Below, piece by piece: positions 6,495-13,218 of a DNA stretch of 13,218 nucleotides (position 1 is the first letter of the stretch; each line of letters begins with the position of its first letter). The stretch is from a virus. Taxonomy: Duplodnaviria; Heunggongvirae; Uroviricota; Caudoviricetes. Where the stretch lies: IMG/VR virus record IMGVR_UViG_2693429582_000029; one strand, 5' to 3'. The position numbers and the translations under genes are program-made. The notes under the pieces are model-generated. The model saw nothing but the letters and a program-made list of their open reading frames with translations, made no database searches and was not told where the DNA came from.

Positions 6495-6543
6495 TGGAGA
6501 AACCAACCGACCTTGCAGGGTCGATATGATGAGGAGCAGCAAA

Positions 6544-6906
6544 ATGGCTAGCGAACGCAGTACCAACGTGCAGGAATTTATCGTAGAACTGGACGGCGGC
6601 GTATTTGAAACTAAACTCGGCGCAGTTCTCAGTGAAGTCGCTTCCGGTGTGATGAACACGAAAAACAAAGGTAAAGTCTCGGTCAATCTGGACATCGAAC
6701 CGTTTGATGAGAACCGTGTGAAAATCAAACACAAACTCTCATATGTTCGCCCGACTAACCGCGGGAAAATTTCTGAAGAAGACACCACCGAAACGCCGAT
6801 GTATGTCAATCGCGGTGGTCGCCTGACTATTCTGCAGGAAGACCAGGGACAGTTACTGACTCTTGCCGGTGAACCTGACGGAAAACTCCGTGCAGCAGGT
6901 CGTTAA
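6544..6906 (+). CDS. yfdP: YfdP-like prophage protein (120 aa), first gene of the early-left operon
   Basis: ATG at 6544 with RBS GAGGAG 7 nt upstream. The longer six-frame ORF (from a TTG at 6313) would run through the leader hairpins and is rejected. Symbol assigned by length and position relative to the yfdQ/yfdR-like genes, as in CPS-53, from memory. Confidence 0.65.
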   Translation: MASERSTNVQEFIVELDGGVFETKLGAVLSEVASGVMNTKNKGKVSVNLDIEPFDENRVKIKHKLSYVRPTNRGKISEEDTTETPMYVNRGGRLTILQEDQGQLLTLAGEPDGKLRAAGR

Positions 6907-8813: not shown

Positions 8814-9433
8814 TGACCACATTTACCGACAAAGAACTGATTAAAGAAATCAAAGAGCGCATAGGCAGTCTGGATGTGCGAGACAATATTGAGCGCCGTG
8901 CTTATGAAATTGCTTTGGTATCGCTGGAAGCAGAACCGGTGGCATGGCTGCATTCAGACAATGGCTTAGGTATTCCGGCAATAACACGGAGTAAAAACAT
9001 TGCTGACAGTTGGTTATCAAAGGGCTGGTATGTTCAGCCGCTATATATAGCCAAGCCAGTGCCGATGGTGCCAGATGTTCGTCCGTCTTTAAATAATGGC
9101 ATAGTCGGTTTTGATGAAGGCTGGAACGCCTGCCGCGCCGCCATGCTTCATGGTGCCGAACCTGTAAGCCAGACTTACAAGTTGAACGAGCTGTCGGGCA
9201 ACTCTCTGGTAACTCCGGATGGTTGGATAAGCTGTAGTGAGCGAATGCCGGACGATAAACAGTATGTTTGGTGTTGGGGTAAGTCTTACGGCTGGACTGA
9301 GTGCGATACCTTCGAAGGGTATTACGATTGGTCGAGAAACAAATGGTGGGCAGTTACTGACGATGGGGAAGAACCGGCATCGAAAGTAACCCACTGGATG
9401 CCGCTACCGGAGCCACCGCAGGAGGTGAAGTAA
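8813..9433 (+). CDS. DUF551-domain phage protein (YfdT-like)
   Basis: 206 aa; C-terminal WISCSERMPDD...THWMPLPEPP matches the DUF551 signature common in enterobacterial phages. TAATG overlaps at both ends. Confidence 0.7.
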   Translation: MTTFTDKELIKEIKERIGSLDVRDNIERRAYEIALVSLEAEPVAWLHSDNGLGIPAITRSKNIADSWLSKGWYVQPLYIAKPVPMVPDVRPSLNNGIVGFDEGWNACRAAMLHGAEPVSQTYKLNELSGNSLVTPDGWISCSERMPDDKQYVWCWGKSYGWTECDTFEGYYDWSRNKWWAVTDDGEEPASKVTHWMPLPEPPQEVK

Positions 9434-9627
9434 TGAACAACTTAATGACAACTAAACAAGTCGCCGACTTCTGTGGCGTTTCAGTATCGACCGTTCTTCG
9501 CTGGAACAGCGTAAACAGGAGAACTGGCCAGAAATACAGGCCAGACTTTCCAGATCCTGATATTAAATCATGCCCAAATAAATGGGCATCACGCAAGATT
9601 TACAAATTTGCGGGAGTTATTGAGTAA
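9433..9627 (+). CDS. Excisionase-like small HTH DNA-binding protein (Xis/AlpA/TorI class)
   Basis: 64 aa; TTKQVADFCGVSVSTVLRWN is the helix-turn-helix of excisionase-type proteins. GGAGG RBS 7 nt upstream. Last gene of the operon, facing the integrase. Confidence 0.6.
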   Translation: MNNLMTTKQVADFCGVSVSTVLRWNSVNRRTGQKYRPDFPDPDIKSCPNKWASRKIYKFAGVIE

Positions 9628-9734
9628 CGAGCATTAGCTCAGATGAGAGTTGGTACACCTATGGCACAGAGCTAAACCTGATCTGTTATATTCGCTCTGT
9701 GCCGGAAGTATGCCATATTTATTACATACAGTTG

Positions 9735-11867
9735 TCAATCTTTAAGACTAATTGTGATTGCATCTGGAAATCCAATTTGGCTATAGCACATAGTTTCGGT
9801 TATGAATAATTTTCTATCGATAAAATCAAGTACATCTTTTTTCGTGAGCCCCGTTAACATCGTCAATTTGTTAATTACATAATCATACCAATCATGGTGA
9901 AGCATGTTTATATACATGTTAATATCAACTGCATCTTTCCTCCATGAATTATTCGGTATCAAATCTTCAGATAAAAATCCTCTTATTAAATCGCTTGCAT
10001 AGGACATCCTAAGAAAAACAGAAAGAAAAATCCTTACATTAACATGTGTAAAATTTGTAGATAGCGTCGAAGGAAACTCGTAAAACCGGTAGATCAACCG
10101 ACTTACAAACACAGCAGAGTCTATCGCATTTACTGGCAGTAATGTTCCGATGACACTTAATGCACCACTTATAACGAAGCCATTAGCAACAGAGGCATGA
10201 GAACCGCTTAGGGCAGATGTTAAACATGCACTCAGAATTACGATAGGAGGAATTCTTGCTATTTTTCTCAAACTCCAAGTGTCCACTTTATCCTCACCTA
10301 TTATTAACCATCCATGACTCCCATTGCCATCATGGTTTCCATGACAATCCATAACAAGAATATGACCTTGATATTGATTTAGAGCATCAATAAACTCAGC
10401 TTTCGATCTAACATCAATAATCTCGCAATCAAGATCTGGCATCTGTTTTTTAAATATCTCAATTGCGTTCTCTAATATGAACTTTAAGTGATCATCAGGC
10501 TCAAAAGAACGTATAACTAAAACCTTTCTCAACTCAGATGCTTTTACTAAAACGCGCGGAAAAGCAGAGGCGCTCTGTAGAAGAACGTTACCAGGCGTAG
10601 CATTTATTCTTGATATCTCATGACTGAACATTATAGGTATGTTATTAAACCTAATCCAATCCAATGGTACATCACAAACAAAGGACAAATCGCTATAGTT
10701 TTTACTTATATATGTTCTCAACTTGCAACCAAGGGCTCTTCGAATAACAGTATTGAATGCTTTAGATTTAGTGATGAATGCTTCACTATTTATCCCAGAA
10801 GAAGTTGCAAGATCTTCAAGATTTTTCAAATAATTGGAGTAATGATTTATTGCATTTGGCAATCTTATTGCTGGGATTTTTTTATTTATGCTAAATAAAG
10901 TAATCGCAGCTGTTGTTAATCGCATTTCAGCGCGTCTTAGTGAGGTGAGGTAACGGAAAGCAGGACTTTTAAAAAGTTCTTTTCTATCTGAATTTATATC
11001 AAGTCTAATTCCAGAATAGCCAGGATTCCTCAACACTCCATCAATAAGGAATTTTTTCTCAATTGTGGATAAATTTTCCGTTATTAACTCATAAAAGTCA
11101 TTATTTTTATCATATAAAAAAGAGTGCATACCCGGAGCAAAAAGTAAGACTTCCGTTGGAAGTGGTATATCTAATTCCTTTAAACATTCGGTGTATGCAT
11201 CAACGCTATGAAGTATTATTTCTATAAACTCTCTTTTGCTACTACCATCTTTAATTCTTTTTGGTGGAGATAGCATATAGCCAAGTGATTCAATTAACAA
11301 CTCATTGGGTAGTGTTGAATTGTTAAGCGTCGATCTCCAAGGTGATTTATTAAATAAAGCCCCTCTTCGCTTCAACTTCGTTGATATTTTCTTTTCACTG
11401 TGATTTTTTCTTATTTTATCCTCAATGAATTTCAACCGAGAGAAGAGCACCTTATCAAATGAGTATATACTATTAATCTTATTAAGTGGTTGATCAGCGC
11501 GTTTAGAATTGCAACAAATTATAGGTGGTATAGCAAAATGTTTTTTTAAAGCACAAACATACGAAAAATCTTCTTTAGCACAAAAAATTAAGCAAAATGG
11601 CGTTTGATAAATATTTGGTATTTTTTCAAGATTTTCTTTAGATATTAAAAAAATAGGATTTAGCCCGCTTAGAGTAGGCTGAAAGTTATCATTTTCATTG
11701 ACAAAAATCTCACTAATTTCTTTTGGTGTTTTGGCCAATAAAAAAAGAATGTTGGATATCTCTGGGTTGAGGAGGCCAGTATCGAAACCTTGGATTATGG
11801 TTTGTTCCCCAGTAGTAGGCATGATTACAACTTTAAGTATCGCCCCGTGTTCCTGTAACAGTTCCAT
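9735..11867 (-). CDS. Large (~710 aa) protein with a C-terminal caspase-like CHAT protease domain and an uncharacterised ~430 aa N-terminal region; candidate defence/abortive-infection effector
   Basis: Uninterrupted 2.1 kb frame in very AT-rich DNA. First ATG at 11867 with an AGGA RBS; the six-frame ORF extends to a TTG at 11924. Caspase/CHAT catalytic signature: HILVMDCHGNHDGNGSHG (His codons at 10341-10343 and 10314-10316) followed about 30 residues later by PPIVILSACLTSA (Cys codon 10224-10226). Confidence 0.85.
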   Translation of the reverse strand: MELLQEHGAILKVVIMPTTGEQTIIQGFDTGLLNPEISNILFLLAKTPKEISEIFVNENDNFQPTLSGLNPIFLISKENLEKIPNIYQTPFCLIFCAKEDFSYVCALKKHFAIPPIICCNSKRADQPLNKINSIYSFDKVLFSRLKFIEDKIRKNHSEKKISTKLKRRGALFNKSPWRSTLNNSTLPNELLIESLGYMLSPPKRIKDGSSKREFIEIILHSVDAYTECLKELDIPLPTEVLLFAPGMHSFLYDKNNDFYELITENLSTIEKKFLIDGVLRNPGYSGIRLDINSDRKELFKSPAFRYLTSLRRAEMRLTTAAITLFSINKKIPAIRLPNAINHYSNYLKNLEDLATSSGINSEAFITKSKAFNTVIRRALGCKLRTYISKNYSDLSFVCDVPLDWIRFNNIPIMFSHEISRINATPGNVLLQSASAFPRVLVKASELRKVLVIRSFEPDDHLKFILENAIEIFKKQMPDLDCEIIDVRSKAEFIDALNQYQGHILVMDCHGNHDGNGSHGWLIIGEDKVDTWSLRKIARIPPIVILSACLTSALSGSHASVANGFVISGALSVIGTLLPVNAIDSAVFVSRLIYRFYEFPSTLSTNFTHVNVRIFLSVFLRMSYASDLIRGFLSEDLIPNNSWRKDAVDINMYINMLHHDWYDYVINKLTMLTGLTKKDVLDFIDRKLFITETMCYSQIGFPDAITISLKD

Positions 11868-11950
11868 CAAAAATCCTAATAAACAAATAAAAATGTTATA
11901 ATCAAAAACTGCAAGGATTAGCAAGCAATTCTTACAGTTTTAAGAAGGGG

Positions 11951-11976
11951 ATTATACCGCAATATGCATAATTGCG
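11951..11976 (-). promoter_or_regulatory. Candidate regulated promoter for the CHAT gene: perfect -10 TATAAT abutted by a palindrome
   Basis: Minus-strand TATAAT at 11956..11951, ~85 nt upstream of the ATG. Immediately upstream lies CGCAAT-N7-ATTGCG (11958-11976), where a -35 element would be expected. The nearest -35-like TTGCAT (11990..11985) is 28 nt away, too far for a standard sigma70 spacer. Confidence 0.35.
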
Positions 11977-12000
11977 TTCTGCCTATGCAAAATGTCAGTT

Positions 12001-13218
12001 CTAGTCTGAACAAGTACAAGTAACTATCGATTCAACCCTCTCCCACCACGCCTGGTAAGCTTTACGCTGTTCTTCTAAATAATCGCTCTTGTCATAAACC
12101 TGCCATACCCCTGGCAGTTTATGACCGAGCATTATTTCTGCAATATGAGGCGCAGTAAGATCAGAAAAGTTTGTTCGTGCTGTTCGTCTCAAATCATGAA
12201 GAGACCAATGAGGGAATTGATACCCCAAACGCCGCCATGCGTACTGCATTAAATTGTAAGGCAGCGACTGCAATGATGTCCGTCCAACGGGCTCCCTGCT
12301 TCCTTCCTTAGTAAAAAGCATATCGGAACCATTGTTCATAGAGATAACGTACTTTATAAGCTCTTCAACCGGTTCAATAATGGGGCGCTTTAGCGGTTCG
12401 CCTGTTATATCCCCTGTCTTATGTCGTTCTGGCGGTACAGTCCATACCTTATTTATGAAATCAAAATCATCCACCCTAGCAGTAATTAGCTCCGAACTAC
12501 GGCAACCAAAATGCAGTAATAGTTTAATGAAGGCCCGGTATTTGGGAACCATTCTAGAGCCATCGATCGCAGCATAAAGAATTTTAATTTCATCGTGTGT
12601 CAGAAACCGTTTCTTCTGACCTTTACGGATATCCATATCTTTACCCGTGATATCCGACAGCGGGCGAGTTTCAATAAGCTTTCTCTTATACGCCCAGACA
12701 TGGGCCTGCTTTGCGTTAATTAGCAATCGGTCTGCTATTGCTGGAGTCTTAGTGCTAAGAGGCTCCAAGACTTCTAACCAATCATGCAATGTAGCTGCAT
12801 CGTGAGGGATATTCCCGATTTTAGAGAACAGGTGCAGCTCAAACGAGCGGAGTATCTGTTCAGAACCCTTTTTATTTTTTACACAATATGCTTCATACCA
12901 GGCACGGATCACAGACTCTACCGTCATGGCTTCAGTAGCTTTTCGTTTTTCAGCCTGCTTGACCAATCGTGGATTACGGTTTGACTCGAGTTCACCACGG
13001 AGACGGATAACTTCTTCTCTGGCCTCTTTTAATCCAGTTGCCGGGTAAGTTCCGATATCAAGACGCTCACCTTTCCCTGCCCATTGATAACGATATTGGA
13101 ACACTACGCGACCTTTCGGTGATACTCTGACAGACAGACCATCACGATCGGATTTAACCAAAACCTTATCACGTTCCTTTCCAACGACTGAACGCAACCA
13201 CGCATCAGACAGCGCCAT
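12001..13218 (-). CDS. int: P4-type tyrosine site-specific integrase
   Basis: 405 aa, with the ATG exactly at the window's last three bases. N-terminal arm-binding region (MALSDAWLRSVVGKERDKVLVKSDRDGLSVRVSPKGRVVFQYRYQW); C-terminal catalytic motifs HDLRRTARTNF (H-x-x-R) and LGHKLPGVWQVYDKSDY (catalytic Tyr). Confidence 0.9.
   Translation of the reverse strand: MALSDAWLRSVVGKERDKVLVKSDRDGLSVRVSPKGRVVFQYRYQWAGKGERLDIGTYPATGLKEAREEVIRLRGELESNRNPRLVKQAEKRKATEAMTVESVIRAWYEAYCVKNKKGSEQILRSFELHLFSKIGNIPHDAATLHDWLEVLEPLSTKTPAIADRLLINAKQAHVWAYKRKLIETRPLSDITGKDMDIRKGQKKRFLTHDEIKILYAAIDGSRMVPKYRAFIKLLLHFGCRSSELITARVDDFDFINKVWTVPPERHKTGDITGEPLKRPIIEPVEELIKYVISMNNGSDMLFTKEGSREPVGRTSLQSLPYNLMQYAWRRLGYQFPHWSLHDLRRTARTNFSDLTAPHIAEIMLGHKLPGVWQVYDKSDYLEEQRKAYQAWWERVESIVTCTCSD

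What the first reader, a model, noticed from the sequence alone, without database searches (positions are those of the whole stretch)
11940..12000. Perfect TATAAT with a palindrome in place of the -35 upstream of the CHAT gene
The minus-strand TATAAT (11956..11951) is preceded by CGCAAT-ATGCATA-ATTGCG (11958-11976), and the only -35-like hexamer TTGCAT is 28 nt away. This layout suggests a promoter that is repressed or activator-dependent, possibly extended -10 or operator-occluded, rather than constitutive, as would suit a toxic effector. The palindrome arms CGCAA/TTGCG use the same pentamer as the immunity-region operators, so prophage-repressor control is conceivable.
Basis: inference. Interest (0 to 1): 0.4.

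Follow-up and report, generated by a model that had tools for sequence, protein, structure and literature searches.

The report
Ordinary promoter region of Borvo defence gene
The TATAAT box and the small palindrome are really there, but they lie in the 133-bp upstream region of a known anti-phage gene (Borvo/bovA) carried as cargo by a prophage; that exact region already works in a strain lacking this prophage, and nothing indicates that the palindrome is a repressor site.

Summary
Observation confirmed. On the minus strand there is TATAAT at 11956..11951, CGCAAT-N7-ATTGCG at 11958-11976, no usable -35 and no TGn.

The "CHAT gene" (9735-11867, minus) is BovA, the single-gene Borvo defence system (PADLOC E 5.5e-241). 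It is an AT-rich cargo cassette in the int-xis slot of a cdtI-like lambdoid prophage.

The published, verified Borvo construct (E. coli 403116, listed as "native" promoter) starts at window base 12001. Its first 399 nt are identical to the window. It protects E. coli MG1655, so no factor of this prophage is needed for expression.

The palindrome does not behave like an operator:
- Its upstream arm is missing and TATAAT reads TACAAA or TAAAAA in the two sister cassettes (83-85% protein identity).
- It straddles the cassette/int-flank junction.
- It is unique in the whole cdtI genome.
- The spacer is identical, or differs by one SNP outside the palindrome, in prophages with an unrelated (e14-type) immunity module.
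- The window's putative operators are ATTGC-N7-GCAAT, the opposite half-site orientation.

The best-conserved non-coding block contains a proximal TTGCTA-18-TATAAC candidate. A weak terminator-like hairpin lies between the two -10 elements.

Most likely reading: weak, factor-independent expression of a cargo gene. Which -10 is used is unresolved. Low interest.

The parts
11868..12000 (-). int-bovA spacer (133 bp): the native regulatory region of the Borvo cassette
   Evidence: It lies between the int stop (12001-12003) and the bovA ATG (11867). It is 100% identical to the 5' end of the verified Borvo construct SG178, which starts at 12001. It is identical, or differs by one SNP, in cdtI, five E. 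coli chromosomes, 10 viral contigs and 4 metagenome contigs.
11951..11956 (-). distal perfect -10 hexamer TATAAT (the finding)
   Evidence: It has no -35 (0-2 of 6 matches) and no TGn. It is followed by CCCC, and the expected start window 11946..11942 contains only pyrimidines. The homologous sequence is TACAAA in L009 and TAAAAA in L010.
11958..11976 (.). inverted repeat CGCAAT-N7-ATTGCG (the finding), at -14 to -32 relative to the start predicted from the distal -10
   Evidence: The upstream arm (11971-11976) falls in a 7-nt gap in L009 and L010. The other arm reads ACTGCG or ATAGGG there. Homology to the L009 cassette ends at 11969 and int-flank homology ends at about 11985, so the repeat spans the junction. 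It is unique in the cdtI genome. As RNA it folds at -6.4 kcal/mol, z -1.5, with no U-run.
11985..11990 (-). TTGCAT, the '-35-like' hexamer 28 nt upstream
   Evidence: It lies in the sequence shared with the int flank of phage 2H10 (homology reaches 11985). It is too far from the -10 to act as a -35.
11900..11941 (-). terminator-like hairpin (arms 11941..11927 and 11919..11905) followed by U5 (11904..11900), lying between the distal -10 and the ATG
   Evidence: -12.4 kcal/mol with the A/U tracts, z -4.3, 0 of 200 shuffles as stable. The core stem alone is only -7.0 kcal/mol. The 5' arm (CTGTAAG versus TCAAAAT) and the U-run (TTTTT versus TTATG) are specific to this lineage. The tool's terminator scan missed it. 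A natural SNP at 11928 weakens the top of the stem.
11907..11930 (-). best-conserved non-coding block AATTGCTTGCTAATCCTTGCAGTT; contains the -35 candidate TTGCTA (11924..11919)
   Evidence: The hairpin 3' arm is 87-93% identical, and the loop segment 71-86% identical, to L009 and L010. Coding sequence is 87-90% identical, while the palindrome's upstream arm scores 0 of 6.
11895..11900 (-). proximal -10 candidate TATAAC, 18 nt downstream of TTGCTA; predicted start near A11888, giving a 21-nt leader
   Evidence: The -35, the 18-nt spacing and TATAA are kept in L009 and L010 (TATAAA there). Weakness: the last hexamer position is not T in any lineage.
11874..11877 (-). Shine-Dalgarno AGGA, 6 nt before the ATG at 11867
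   Evidence: All close homologues (54-85% protein identity) whose 5' end was read start at MEL(L/I)Q/K, which supports ATG 11867 as the start. RefSeq annotates the same start.
9735..11867 (-). bovA (Borvo defence system; CHAT protease), 710 aa
   Evidence: PADLOC BovA E 5.5e-241 over the full length. Pfam CHAT 26.5 bits. 99.5% DNA identity to the E. coli 403116 locus that supplied the verified system. GC is 0.28-0.40 against 0.43-0.52 in the flanks.
12001..13218 (-). tyrosine integrase, upstream of bovA and in the same orientation
   Evidence: Pfam Arm-DNA-bind_3, Phage_int_M and Phage_integrase. Shared at 95-97% identity with phages that carry other cargo in place of bovA.
5065..5129 (.). comparator: cI/cro operator region with putative operators ATTGC-N7-GCAAT at 5065-5081 and 5113-5129 (also 5896-5912 and 5920-5936 downstream of cI)
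   Evidence: The operators were inferred by me from repeated dyads spaced 24 or 48 bp apart; they have not been tested.

Best explanation
The 133-bp int-bovA spacer is the self-contained expression region of a Borvo (BovA, CHAT-protease) defence cassette. The cassette sits as AT-rich cargo in the variable int-xis slot of a cdtI-like lambdoid prophage.

bovA is most likely transcribed at a low, essentially constitutive level by host sigma-70 RNA polymerase from weak promoter(s) inside this spacer. No prophage-encoded activator or repressor is involved. There are two candidate start regions:
- the distal perfect TATAAT (11956..11951), which has no -35 and is specific to this lineage;
- the proximal TTGCTA-18-TATAAC (11924..11895), whose -35 lies in the best-conserved non-coding block.
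I cannot tell which dominates.

The CGCAAT-N7-ATTGCG palindrome is a lineage-specific inverted repeat lying across the junction between the cassette and the int flank. It is not an operator of the resident CI repressor.

Shown here: the identity of the gene, the cassette boundaries, identity of the spacer to the functional published construct, non-conservation of the palindrome, and independence from immunity type. Inferred: which -10 is used, and that expression is constitutive.
For: 1. The gene is BovA. It is inserted relative to phages with the same int and xis, which carry other cargo. Its GC content is atypical for the region.
2. [quoted passage not shown] It begins at window base 12001, is identical over the 399 nt shown, and is 2569 nt long, which corresponds to window 9433-12001. 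It is listed as 'native' promoter in E. coli MG1655 and gives defence there. It was also used under its native promoter in BW25113.
3. The two sister cassettes (85% and 83% protein identity, in unrelated genomic contexts) lack the upstream palindrome arm and read TACAAA or TAAAAA in place of TATAAT. They keep TTGCTA or TTGCAA, 18 nt, then TATAA.
4. The spacer is identical in two prophage copies with an unrelated immunity module (cdtI twice as L001/L055, and L024) and differs by one SNP outside the palindrome in two more (L026, L027). Window 4826-5977 has no homology in L024, L026 and L027. The repressors share only 38% identity over 39 aa of the S24 domain.
5. The operator matrix gives 8.0 bits in the spacer against 14.7-18.7 for the four sites it was built from.
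6. There is no second copy of the palindrome in the cdtI genome.
7. No Rfam family matches the spacer.
Against: - No transcription start data exist for this locus in anything I could search.
- Read-through from the pSG1 vector into the insert cannot be excluded, so 'the native promoter is active' is the authors' design assumption rather than a measured fact.
- On a crude hexamer score, neither candidate on the bovA strand exceeds what occurs roughly every 100-200 nt in the window.
- The composite of a perfect -10 with an abutting perfect inverted repeat is rare in shuffles (0.2%, post hoc).
- All three derived features (perfect TATAAT, palindrome, hairpin) arose together in this lineage, which could reflect selection after insertion next to int.
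- Invariance of the palindrome across all copies carries no information either way, because the whole region is at least 97% identical.
- Only two sister lineages were available for comparison.
Confidence: 0.6

Rival explanations
1. The hairpin is the int terminator or an insulator, the distal TATAAT is a silent chance match, and bovA is transcribed only from the proximal TTGCTA-18-TATAAC promoter that overlaps the hairpin's 3' arm.
For: - The hairpin with U5 is far more stable than shuffles (z -4.3). It lies 60-100 nt after the int stop, upstream of the proximal -10.
- The proximal -35 and spacing are conserved in sister cassettes and the distal -10 is not.
- The distal -10 has no -35 and no TGn, has a C-rich discriminator, and has only pyrimidines at the expected start. 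The proximal candidate has an A at the expected start.
- TATAAT arises by chance in 15% of shuffles of this spacer.
Against: - The proximal -10 lacks the near-invariant T at its last position in every lineage (TATAAC or TATAAA).
- The hairpin's core stem is only -7.0 kcal/mol, which is weak for an intrinsic terminator.
- A common natural SNP weakens the stem further.
- The hairpin is absent from the sister cassettes.
Confidence: 0.22
2. The palindrome is a genuine operator for some regulator other than the resident CI (a host transcription factor or another phage protein). Sitting at -14 to -32, it would occlude the distal promoter, so Borvo expression would be conditional.
For: - Geometry: the dyad centre is at about -23 relative to the predicted start, which is typical for repressors.
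- The composite is rare in shuffles.
- It is invariant in all copies of this lineage.
Against: - It is not conserved in sister cassettes.
- It spans a recombination junction.
- It is a single copy in the phage genome.
- I could recall no E. coli factor with a GCAAT-N7-ATTGC site. PurR and CytR-type sites have contiguous half-sites (from memory).
- The construct functions in K-12 without any inducer.
- Six-bp inverted repeats are common.
Confidence: 0.1
3. One reading: the prophage CI-type repressor binds the palindrome and keeps the CHAT gene off in the lysogen.
For: The pentamers CGCAA and TTGCG occur in the cI/cro and post-cI operator regions. One dyad there (CGCAAA-N3-TTTGCG, 5090-5104) has the same arm orientation as the palindrome.
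Against: - The four clearest putative operators are ATTGC-N7-GCAAT, the opposite half-site order. The one dyad in the same orientation has a spacer 4 bp shorter.
- The matrix score in the spacer is 8.0 bits against 14.7-18.7 for the training sites.
- The spacer is unchanged, or differs by one SNP outside the palindrome, in prophages whose repressor, cro and operators are unrelated.
- The pentamer is only mildly enriched in the window, 33 against about 24 expected.
- A defence gene that is silenced in the lysogen would have no function there.
Confidence: 0.03

Closest known systems
Borvo defence system (BovA), construct SG178 from E. coli 403116 (Millman et al. 2022 preprint 10.1101/2022.05.11.491447; Stokar-Avihail et al. 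preprint 10.1101/2022.08.27.505566)
   Same: Same gene and same upstream spacer. The first 399 nt of the construct are identical to window 11603-12001, and the source locus is 99.5% identical over 9433-12001. It is listed as 'native' promoter in MG1655.
   Different: Nothing material differs. Neither preprint text I searched (for 'Borvo', 'native promoter', 'upstream', 'CHAT') describes the promoter, transcription start, palindrome or hairpin, so the promoter anatomy itself appears to be unmapped.
Phage 'morons': autonomously expressed cargo genes of lambdoid prophages (concept of Hendrix and colleagues, from memory)
   Same: An extra gene of atypical GC content, inserted between conserved neighbours (int and xis), carrying its own short upstream region. 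The slot holds different cargo in related phages.
   Different: A clear flanking terminator was not demonstrated. The 10-bp inverted repeat downstream (9663-9672 / 9694-9703) has no U-run. Autonomous transcription is inferred, not measured.
Lambdoid CI/Cro operator sites
   Same: A short dyad-symmetric sequence overlapping the core promoter region, sharing a pentamer with the putative operators of this phage.
   Different: The half-site orientation or spacing is wrong, the matrix score is low, there is a single copy, and it does not co-vary with immunity type.
-10-only promoters in AT-rich, horizontally acquired DNA of E. coli (established knowledge, from memory)
   Same: A perfect or near-perfect -10 without a -35, in 69% A+T DNA. 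There is also an overlapping -10-like element on the opposite strand (TGtTATAAT at 11894-11902, + strand).
   Different: Whether either hexamer fires has not been tested here.

Membership tests
Canonical sigma-70 promoter (distal candidate) | -10 hexamer close to TATAAT | tested here: met
   6 of 6 at 11956..11951.
Canonical sigma-70 promoter (distal candidate) | -35 hexamer close to TTGACA at 16-18 nt spacing | tested here: not met
   0-2 of 6 at spacings 16-18. The tool's scan gives no hit. The candidate is not among the six top-scoring candidates on the bovA strand in the combined score.
Extended -10 promoter | TGn immediately upstream of the -10 | tested here: not met
   The sequence is CGG-TATAAT; only the G is present.
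Any promoter | Mapped transcription start | not testable with these tools
   No 5'-end data for this locus were found in four Borvo-related keyword searches or the five papers opened.
Operator of the resident CI repressor | Sequence match to the phage's own operators | tested here: not met
   A matrix built from 4 putative operators gives a best score of 8.0 bits in the spacer against 14.7-18.7 for those same sites. The half-site order is reversed. The operators themselves were inferred, not tested.
Operator of the resident CI repressor | Co-variation with immunity type | tested here: not met
   The spacer is identical in cdtI and L024, and differs by one SNP outside the palindrome in L026 and L027. 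All of these carry the unrelated ymfK/ymfT immunity module.
Functional cis-regulatory dyad (any regulator) | Conservation in orthologous upstream regions | tested here: not met
   One arm is absent and the other is mutated in L009 and L010. Only two informative lineages were available.
Functional cis-regulatory dyad (any regulator) | Specific protein binding | not testable with these tools
   Requires EMSA, footprinting or DNA pull-down.
Class II activator site or MerR-type promoter | Dyad centred near -41.5, or a dyad inside a 19-20-bp spacer between recognisable -35 and -10 hexamers | tested here: not met
   The dyad centre is at about -23. Hexamers at 19-20 nt spacing match TTGACA at no more than 2 of 6 positions (criteria from memory).
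Intrinsic terminator (hairpin 11941..11905) | Stable G+C-rich stem followed by a U-run | tested here: inconclusive
   A U5 run is present and the hairpin's z-score is -4.3. The core stem is only -7.0 kcal/mol with 3 G-C pairs. The tool's scan missed it, and it is not conserved in L009 or L010.
Borvo defence system | Full-length match to BovA with a CHAT domain | tested here: met
   PADLOC 800 bits over residues 4-709. Pfam CHAT is above its cut-off. 99.5% DNA identity to the verified source locus.
Phage moron | Insertion between conserved neighbours, atypical composition, own promoter and terminator | tested here: inconclusive
   Insertion and atypical composition are met. An own promoter is supported only indirectly by the published construct. 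A terminator was not shown.

The most novel reading that the evidence does not exclude
After the Borvo cassette was captured next to int, losing the part of its original upstream region beyond about -100, this lineage may have evolved a new regulatory unit. That unit would be a perfect -10 overlapped by a dyad operator for an unidentified host or phage regulator, followed by a hairpin/U-run attenuator. Borvo dosage would then be conditionally controlled rather than constitutive.
Probability: 0.07. Interest if true: 0.35.

Novelty: new member of a known kind. Interest (0 to 1): 0.12.

Why it matters
It matters little beyond annotation. It identifies the window's 'CHAT gene' as the experimentally verified Borvo system. 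It also shows that the exact 133-bp spacer under discussion is the 'native promoter' fragment already used in published defence assays.

For anyone studying Borvo dosage or engineering the system, three points are practical:
- Two candidate -10 elements flank a weak terminator-like hairpin.
- The palindrome is unlikely to be regulatory.
- The promoter has apparently never been mapped.

The result gives no support to the idea that prophage repressors control their defence cargo at this locus.

Tried and rejected
- **Tool promoter/terminator scan of 11600-12400:** no site in the spacer. It is too strict to see either candidate or the hairpin.
- **Rfam:** no match in the spacer at E<=1, and two unrelated hits elsewhere at gathering threshold.
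- **The palindrome as an int terminator:** rejected. It folds at -6.4 kcal/mol with z -1.5 and has no U-run.
- **Known E. coli sites checked by eye and from memory:** LexA (CTGT-N8-ACAG), CRP, PurR/CytR (contiguous half-sites), RcsAB, MerR-type and class II activator geometry. None fits. These are recollections, not database tests.
- **Comparative depth:**
  - All 32 E. coli complete genomes with the cassette are at least 99% identical.
  - The genome-contig scan returned only homologues of 32-35% identity.
  - Viral and metagenome pattern scans returned only the same two lineages plus one previously seen at 69% identity.
  - Upstream regions of homologues at 73% protein identity or below do not align reliably beyond about 50 nt.
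  - An apparent shared 'GCATAYTG...TATAAT' with the 69% lineage did not hold up in the alignment.
- **Cargo genes in the same slot of the Stx2c phage and phage 2H10:** no Pfam or PADLOC match.
- **First literature search** (Borvo OR BovA, word-start) was swamped by unrelated words.
- **Full SG178 insert sequence:** the stored table cell is cut at 399 nt. The 3' end at 9433 is therefore inferred from the stated length. Identity over the full span was checked against the source strain's viral contig instead.

Full report
**1. What is in the sequence**

- On the minus strand, TATAAT lies at 11956..11951.
- One base upstream lies CGCAAT-TATGCAT-ATTGCG, which is + strand 11958-11976.
- TTGCAT lies at 11990..11985, 28 nt from the hexamer.
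- Hexamers at 16-18 nt spacing match TTGACA at 0-2 of 6 positions.
- The bases before the hexamer are CGG, so this is not an extended -10.
- The tool's sigma-70 scan finds nothing in the spacer.
- Downstream of the hexamer come CCCC and then only pyrimidines across the expected start window (11946..11942). Both features are unfavourable for initiation (established promoter knowledge, from memory).

**2. Comparison with chance**

- Perfect 6-bp-arm inverted repeats with spacers of 0-10 nt occur at 4.7 per kb in the window. 37% of shuffles of the 133-nt spacer contain at least one.
- TATAAT on the bovA strand appears in 15% of dinucleotide shuffles of this 69% A+T spacer.
- TATAAT is not enriched in the window as a whole: 4 observed against 6.6 expected. 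Two of the four copies lie in this spacer, one on each strand.
- The composite of TATAAT with an abutting inverted repeat occurs in 0.2% of shuffles. It was defined after the fact, so that figure overstates its significance.

**3. Context**

The window is the early region of a lambdoid prophage. It is 99% identical over 9400-13218 to phage cdtI and 98.7% identical to phage Ayreon. The layout is as follows:

| Feature | Coordinates | Strand |
|---|---|---|
| cro-like gene | 4791-5051 | - |
| S24 repressor | 5149-5841 | + |
| Leftward operon (yfdP/Q/R/S-like, DUF551, excisionase-like) | to 9627 | + |
| "CHAT gene" | 9735-11867 | - |
| Integrase | 12001-13218 | - |

The CHAT gene is BovA, the single protein of the Borvo defence system. 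The PADLOC match is E 5.5e-241 over the full length, and Pfam CHAT scores above its cut-off. Its GC content is 0.28-0.40, against 0.43-0.52 in the flanks.

Phages with the same int and xis (2H10, and Stx1a/Stx2c phages) carry different, unannotatable cargo in this slot. Homology to them stops at about 11985-12013 on the int side and at 9663-9710 on the xis side.

Only 32 of 5,426 complete E. coli genomes carry the cassette. About 700 carry the int flank. bovA with its roughly 100-160-bp upstream region is therefore a mobile cargo unit. The TATAAT and most of the palindrome belong to that unit.

**4. Published experimental evidence on this exact DNA**

The supplementary table of the Millman et al. 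preprint gives the insert of the verified Borvo construct SG178, from E. coli 403116. The insert begins GAACTGACATTTTGCATAGGCAGAACGCAATTATGCATATTGCGGTATAAT...

The 399 nt shown match window 11603-12001 exactly. The stated length of 2569 nt places the other end at 9433. The source strain's prophage contig is 99.5% identical to the window over that span.

The preprint states that inserts spanned the genes and the intergenic spaces so as to include native promoters. The follow-up preprint lists this strain as 'native' promoter in E. coli MG1655. It also reports that:
- Borvo defends by abortive infection;
- phages escape through mutations in their DNA polymerase;
- Borvo-containing cells become toxic only when that polymerase is co-expressed.

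A 2026 paper used the same plasmid under its native promoter in BW25113.

The 133-bp spacer plus gene is therefore sufficient for function in a K-12 host, which to my knowledge has no cdtI-like prophage. This argues against dependence on a prophage-encoded activator. It also removes the premise that the product is toxic unless repressed. One caveat remains: read-through from the vector was not excluded by anything I could read.

**5. Is the palindrome an operator of the resident repressor?**

The cI/cro intergenic region and the region downstream of cI contain four clear dyads of the form ATTGC-N7-GCAAT. They lie at 5065-5081, 5113-5129, 5896-5912 and 5920-5936, with centres 24 or 48 bp apart. 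These are putative operators that I inferred; they have not been tested.

The palindrome in the finding is GCAAT-N7-ATTGC, which is the opposite half-site order. A matrix built from the four dyads scores 8.0 bits at best in the spacer. The four training sites score 14.7-18.7 bits, and several non-operator sites score higher than the spacer. One dyad at 5090-5104 (CGCAAA-N3-TTTGCG) has the same orientation as the palindrome, but its spacer is 4 bp shorter.

More decisive is the comparison across prophages. In cdtI itself and in three E. coli chromosomes (L024, L026, L027), window 4826-5977 is replaced by an unrelated e14-type ymfT/ymfK module. That interval holds cro, the operators and the repressor. 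The replacement module's operator regions look GTAC-based. Its repressor shares only 38% identity over 39 aa of the protease domain with the window's repressor. Despite this, the int-bovA spacer is identical in cdtI and L024. In L026 and L027 it differs by one SNP at 11928, outside the palindrome.

The palindrome is also the only copy in the 47-kb cdtI genome.

**6. Is the palindrome conserved with the gene?**

BovA homologues at 85% (L009) and 83% (L010) protein identity sit in unrelated contexts. L009 lies in an AlpA/YfjJ-type island, and L010 lies near an HTH gene. They share about 163 nt of upstream sequence with each other and about 100 nt with the window. The alignment shows the following.

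| Element in the window | L009 (85%) | L010 (83%) |
|---|---|---|
| Upstream palindrome arm CGCAAT(T) | 7-nt gap | 7-nt gap |
| Other palindrome arm ATTGCG | ACTGCG | ATAGGG |
| TATAAT | TACAAA | TAAAAA |

The T at the last position of the window's hexamer results from a 7-nt length difference relative to both sisters.

Homology to the L009 cassette ends at 11969. Homology to the int flank fades between 11985 and about 11976. The palindrome therefore straddles the recombination junction.

Pattern scans of the viral and metagenome collections found only these same lineages. More distant upstream regions do not align reliably.

**7. What is conserved instead**

The best-conserved non-coding block is AATTGCTTGCTAATCCTTGCAGTT (11930..11907). 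Its downstream part, the hairpin's 3' arm, is 87-93% identical to the sisters; the loop segment is 71-86%. Coding sequence is 87-90% identical.

This block contains TTGCTA (11924..11919). Exactly 18 nt downstream in all three lineages lies TATAA: TATAAC at 11900..11895 in the window, and TATAAA in the sisters. This proximal candidate has an A at the expected start (about 11888) and would give a 21-nt leader containing the AGGA ribosome-binding site. Its weakness is the lack of the near-invariant T at the last position of the -10.

On a crude hexamer score, no candidate on the bovA strand exceeds about 5.9. That level is reached roughly every 100-200 nt in the window.

**8. The hairpin between the two -10 elements**

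The sequence AAAACUGUAAGAAUU-GCUUGCU-AAUCCUUGCAGUUUU followed by U (11941..11900) folds at -12.4 kcal/mol. Its z-score is -4.3, and none of 200 shuffles is as stable.

Its 5' arm and its U-run are specific to this lineage. The core stem alone is only -7.0 kcal/mol, and a common natural SNP at 11928 weakens it to -5.3.

It could be any of three things:
- a weak terminator or insulator for int transcripts;
- an attenuator for transcripts from the distal -10;
- a 5'-terminal stabilising stem for those transcripts.

The data do not discriminate among these.

**9. Conclusion**

Its interpretation as a repressed or activator-dependent promoter under prophage-repressor control is not supported.

The most economical account is a cargo (moron) gene with weak, factor-independent sigma-70 expression from its own spacer, and a junction-derived inverted repeat with no demonstrated function. 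My estimates, which are judgements rather than computed values, are:
- about 55% that the distal TATAAT fires detectably;
- about 45% that the proximal candidate fires detectably;
- about 80% that at least one of them does;
- about 10% that the palindrome binds some regulator;
- about 3% that this regulator is the resident CI.

The locus is a known system in a known kind of genomic slot. Only the promoter mapping is missing.

Noticed in passing
window 11894-11902 (+ strand): TGtTATAAT is a perfect extended -10 on the strand antisense to bovA, overlapping the proximal TATAAC. It is the highest-scoring promoter-like element in the spacer (7.6; 73 of 26,374 window positions reach 7 or more). A transcript from it would run through the hairpin towards int in antisense. 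The sister cassettes have TATACT at the same place.
   Followed up: partly
window 3702-3789 and 3814-3890 (- strand): Rfam finds C4 antisense RNA (82.8 bits) and isrK (63.7 bits) inside the mechanical 382-aa ORF 3102-4250. In related prophages RefSeq annotates the corresponding gene as a Rha-family regulator; in some copies the call is shorter and a DUF4222 gene precedes it. This suggests a P1/P7-style c4/antirepressor module, and a real coding region that may be shorter than the ORF.
   Followed up: no
window 4826-5977, compared with L024, L026, L027 and L055: Otherwise 91-99% identical prophages carry one of two unrelated immunity modules. One is an XRE-S24 repressor (230 aa) with an 86-aa Cro. 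The other is e14-type YmfK (224 aa) with YmfT. The swap has sharp boundaries at about 4826 and 5977.
   Followed up: partly
window 5090-5104: The dyad CGCAAA-TAT-TTTGCG lies exactly midway (24 bp centre to centre) between the two ATTGC-N7-GCAAT dyads of the cI/cro region, but has the opposite half-site arrangement. It may be a site for a different protein, such as Cro or a CII-like factor.
   Followed up: no
window 9581-9597 and 9619-9635: Two sequences at the 3' end of, and just after, the excisionase-like gene score 12.9 and 13.0 bits with the putative operator matrix. These are the best scores outside the four training sites. The matrix rests on only four sites, so they may be chance.
   Followed up: no
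window 9663-9672 / 9694-9703: A perfect 10-bp inverted repeat (GGCACAGAGC ... GCTCTGTGCC, 21-nt loop) lies between the convergent 3' ends of xis and bovA, with no U-run on either strand. It sits at the xis-side boundary of the cargo slot, where homology to phage 2H10 ends at 9663.
   Followed up: no
window 5842-6543: About 700 nt separate the repressor gene from the first gene RefSeq annotates in the leftward operon. That gene is the YfdP family gene at 4095-4457 in L023, which converts to window 6544-6906 by my arithmetic. The stretch begins with a GC-rich stem plus T-run right after the repressor gene and with the putative left operators. The mechanical ORFs in it are probably not genes.
   Followed up: no
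L020 (Serratia), L014/L022 (L014 is Pantoea), L012 and L017 (prophage tail ends): More distant bovA homologues sit next to other defence-like genes, or at other prophage cargo positions. L020 lies beside an OLD-family ATPase plus UvrD helicase pair resembling Gabija. L014 and L022 lie beside a large HATPase_c_3 protein. L012 and L017 lie beside tail-fibre or tail-spike genes.
   Followed up: no
L016 (Dickeya fangzhongdai) about 2960-3000: The annotated 671-aa BovA homologue appears truncated at its 5' end by a frameshift. MELLQEQG is readable in another frame just upstream of the annotated start.
   Followed up: no
beyond window 13218 (from L023-L027): In the five E. coli chromosomes examined, the prophage sits with int next to yjjG, with a 69-bp pseudogene fragment between them. 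It is not next to a tRNA gene.
   Followed up: no
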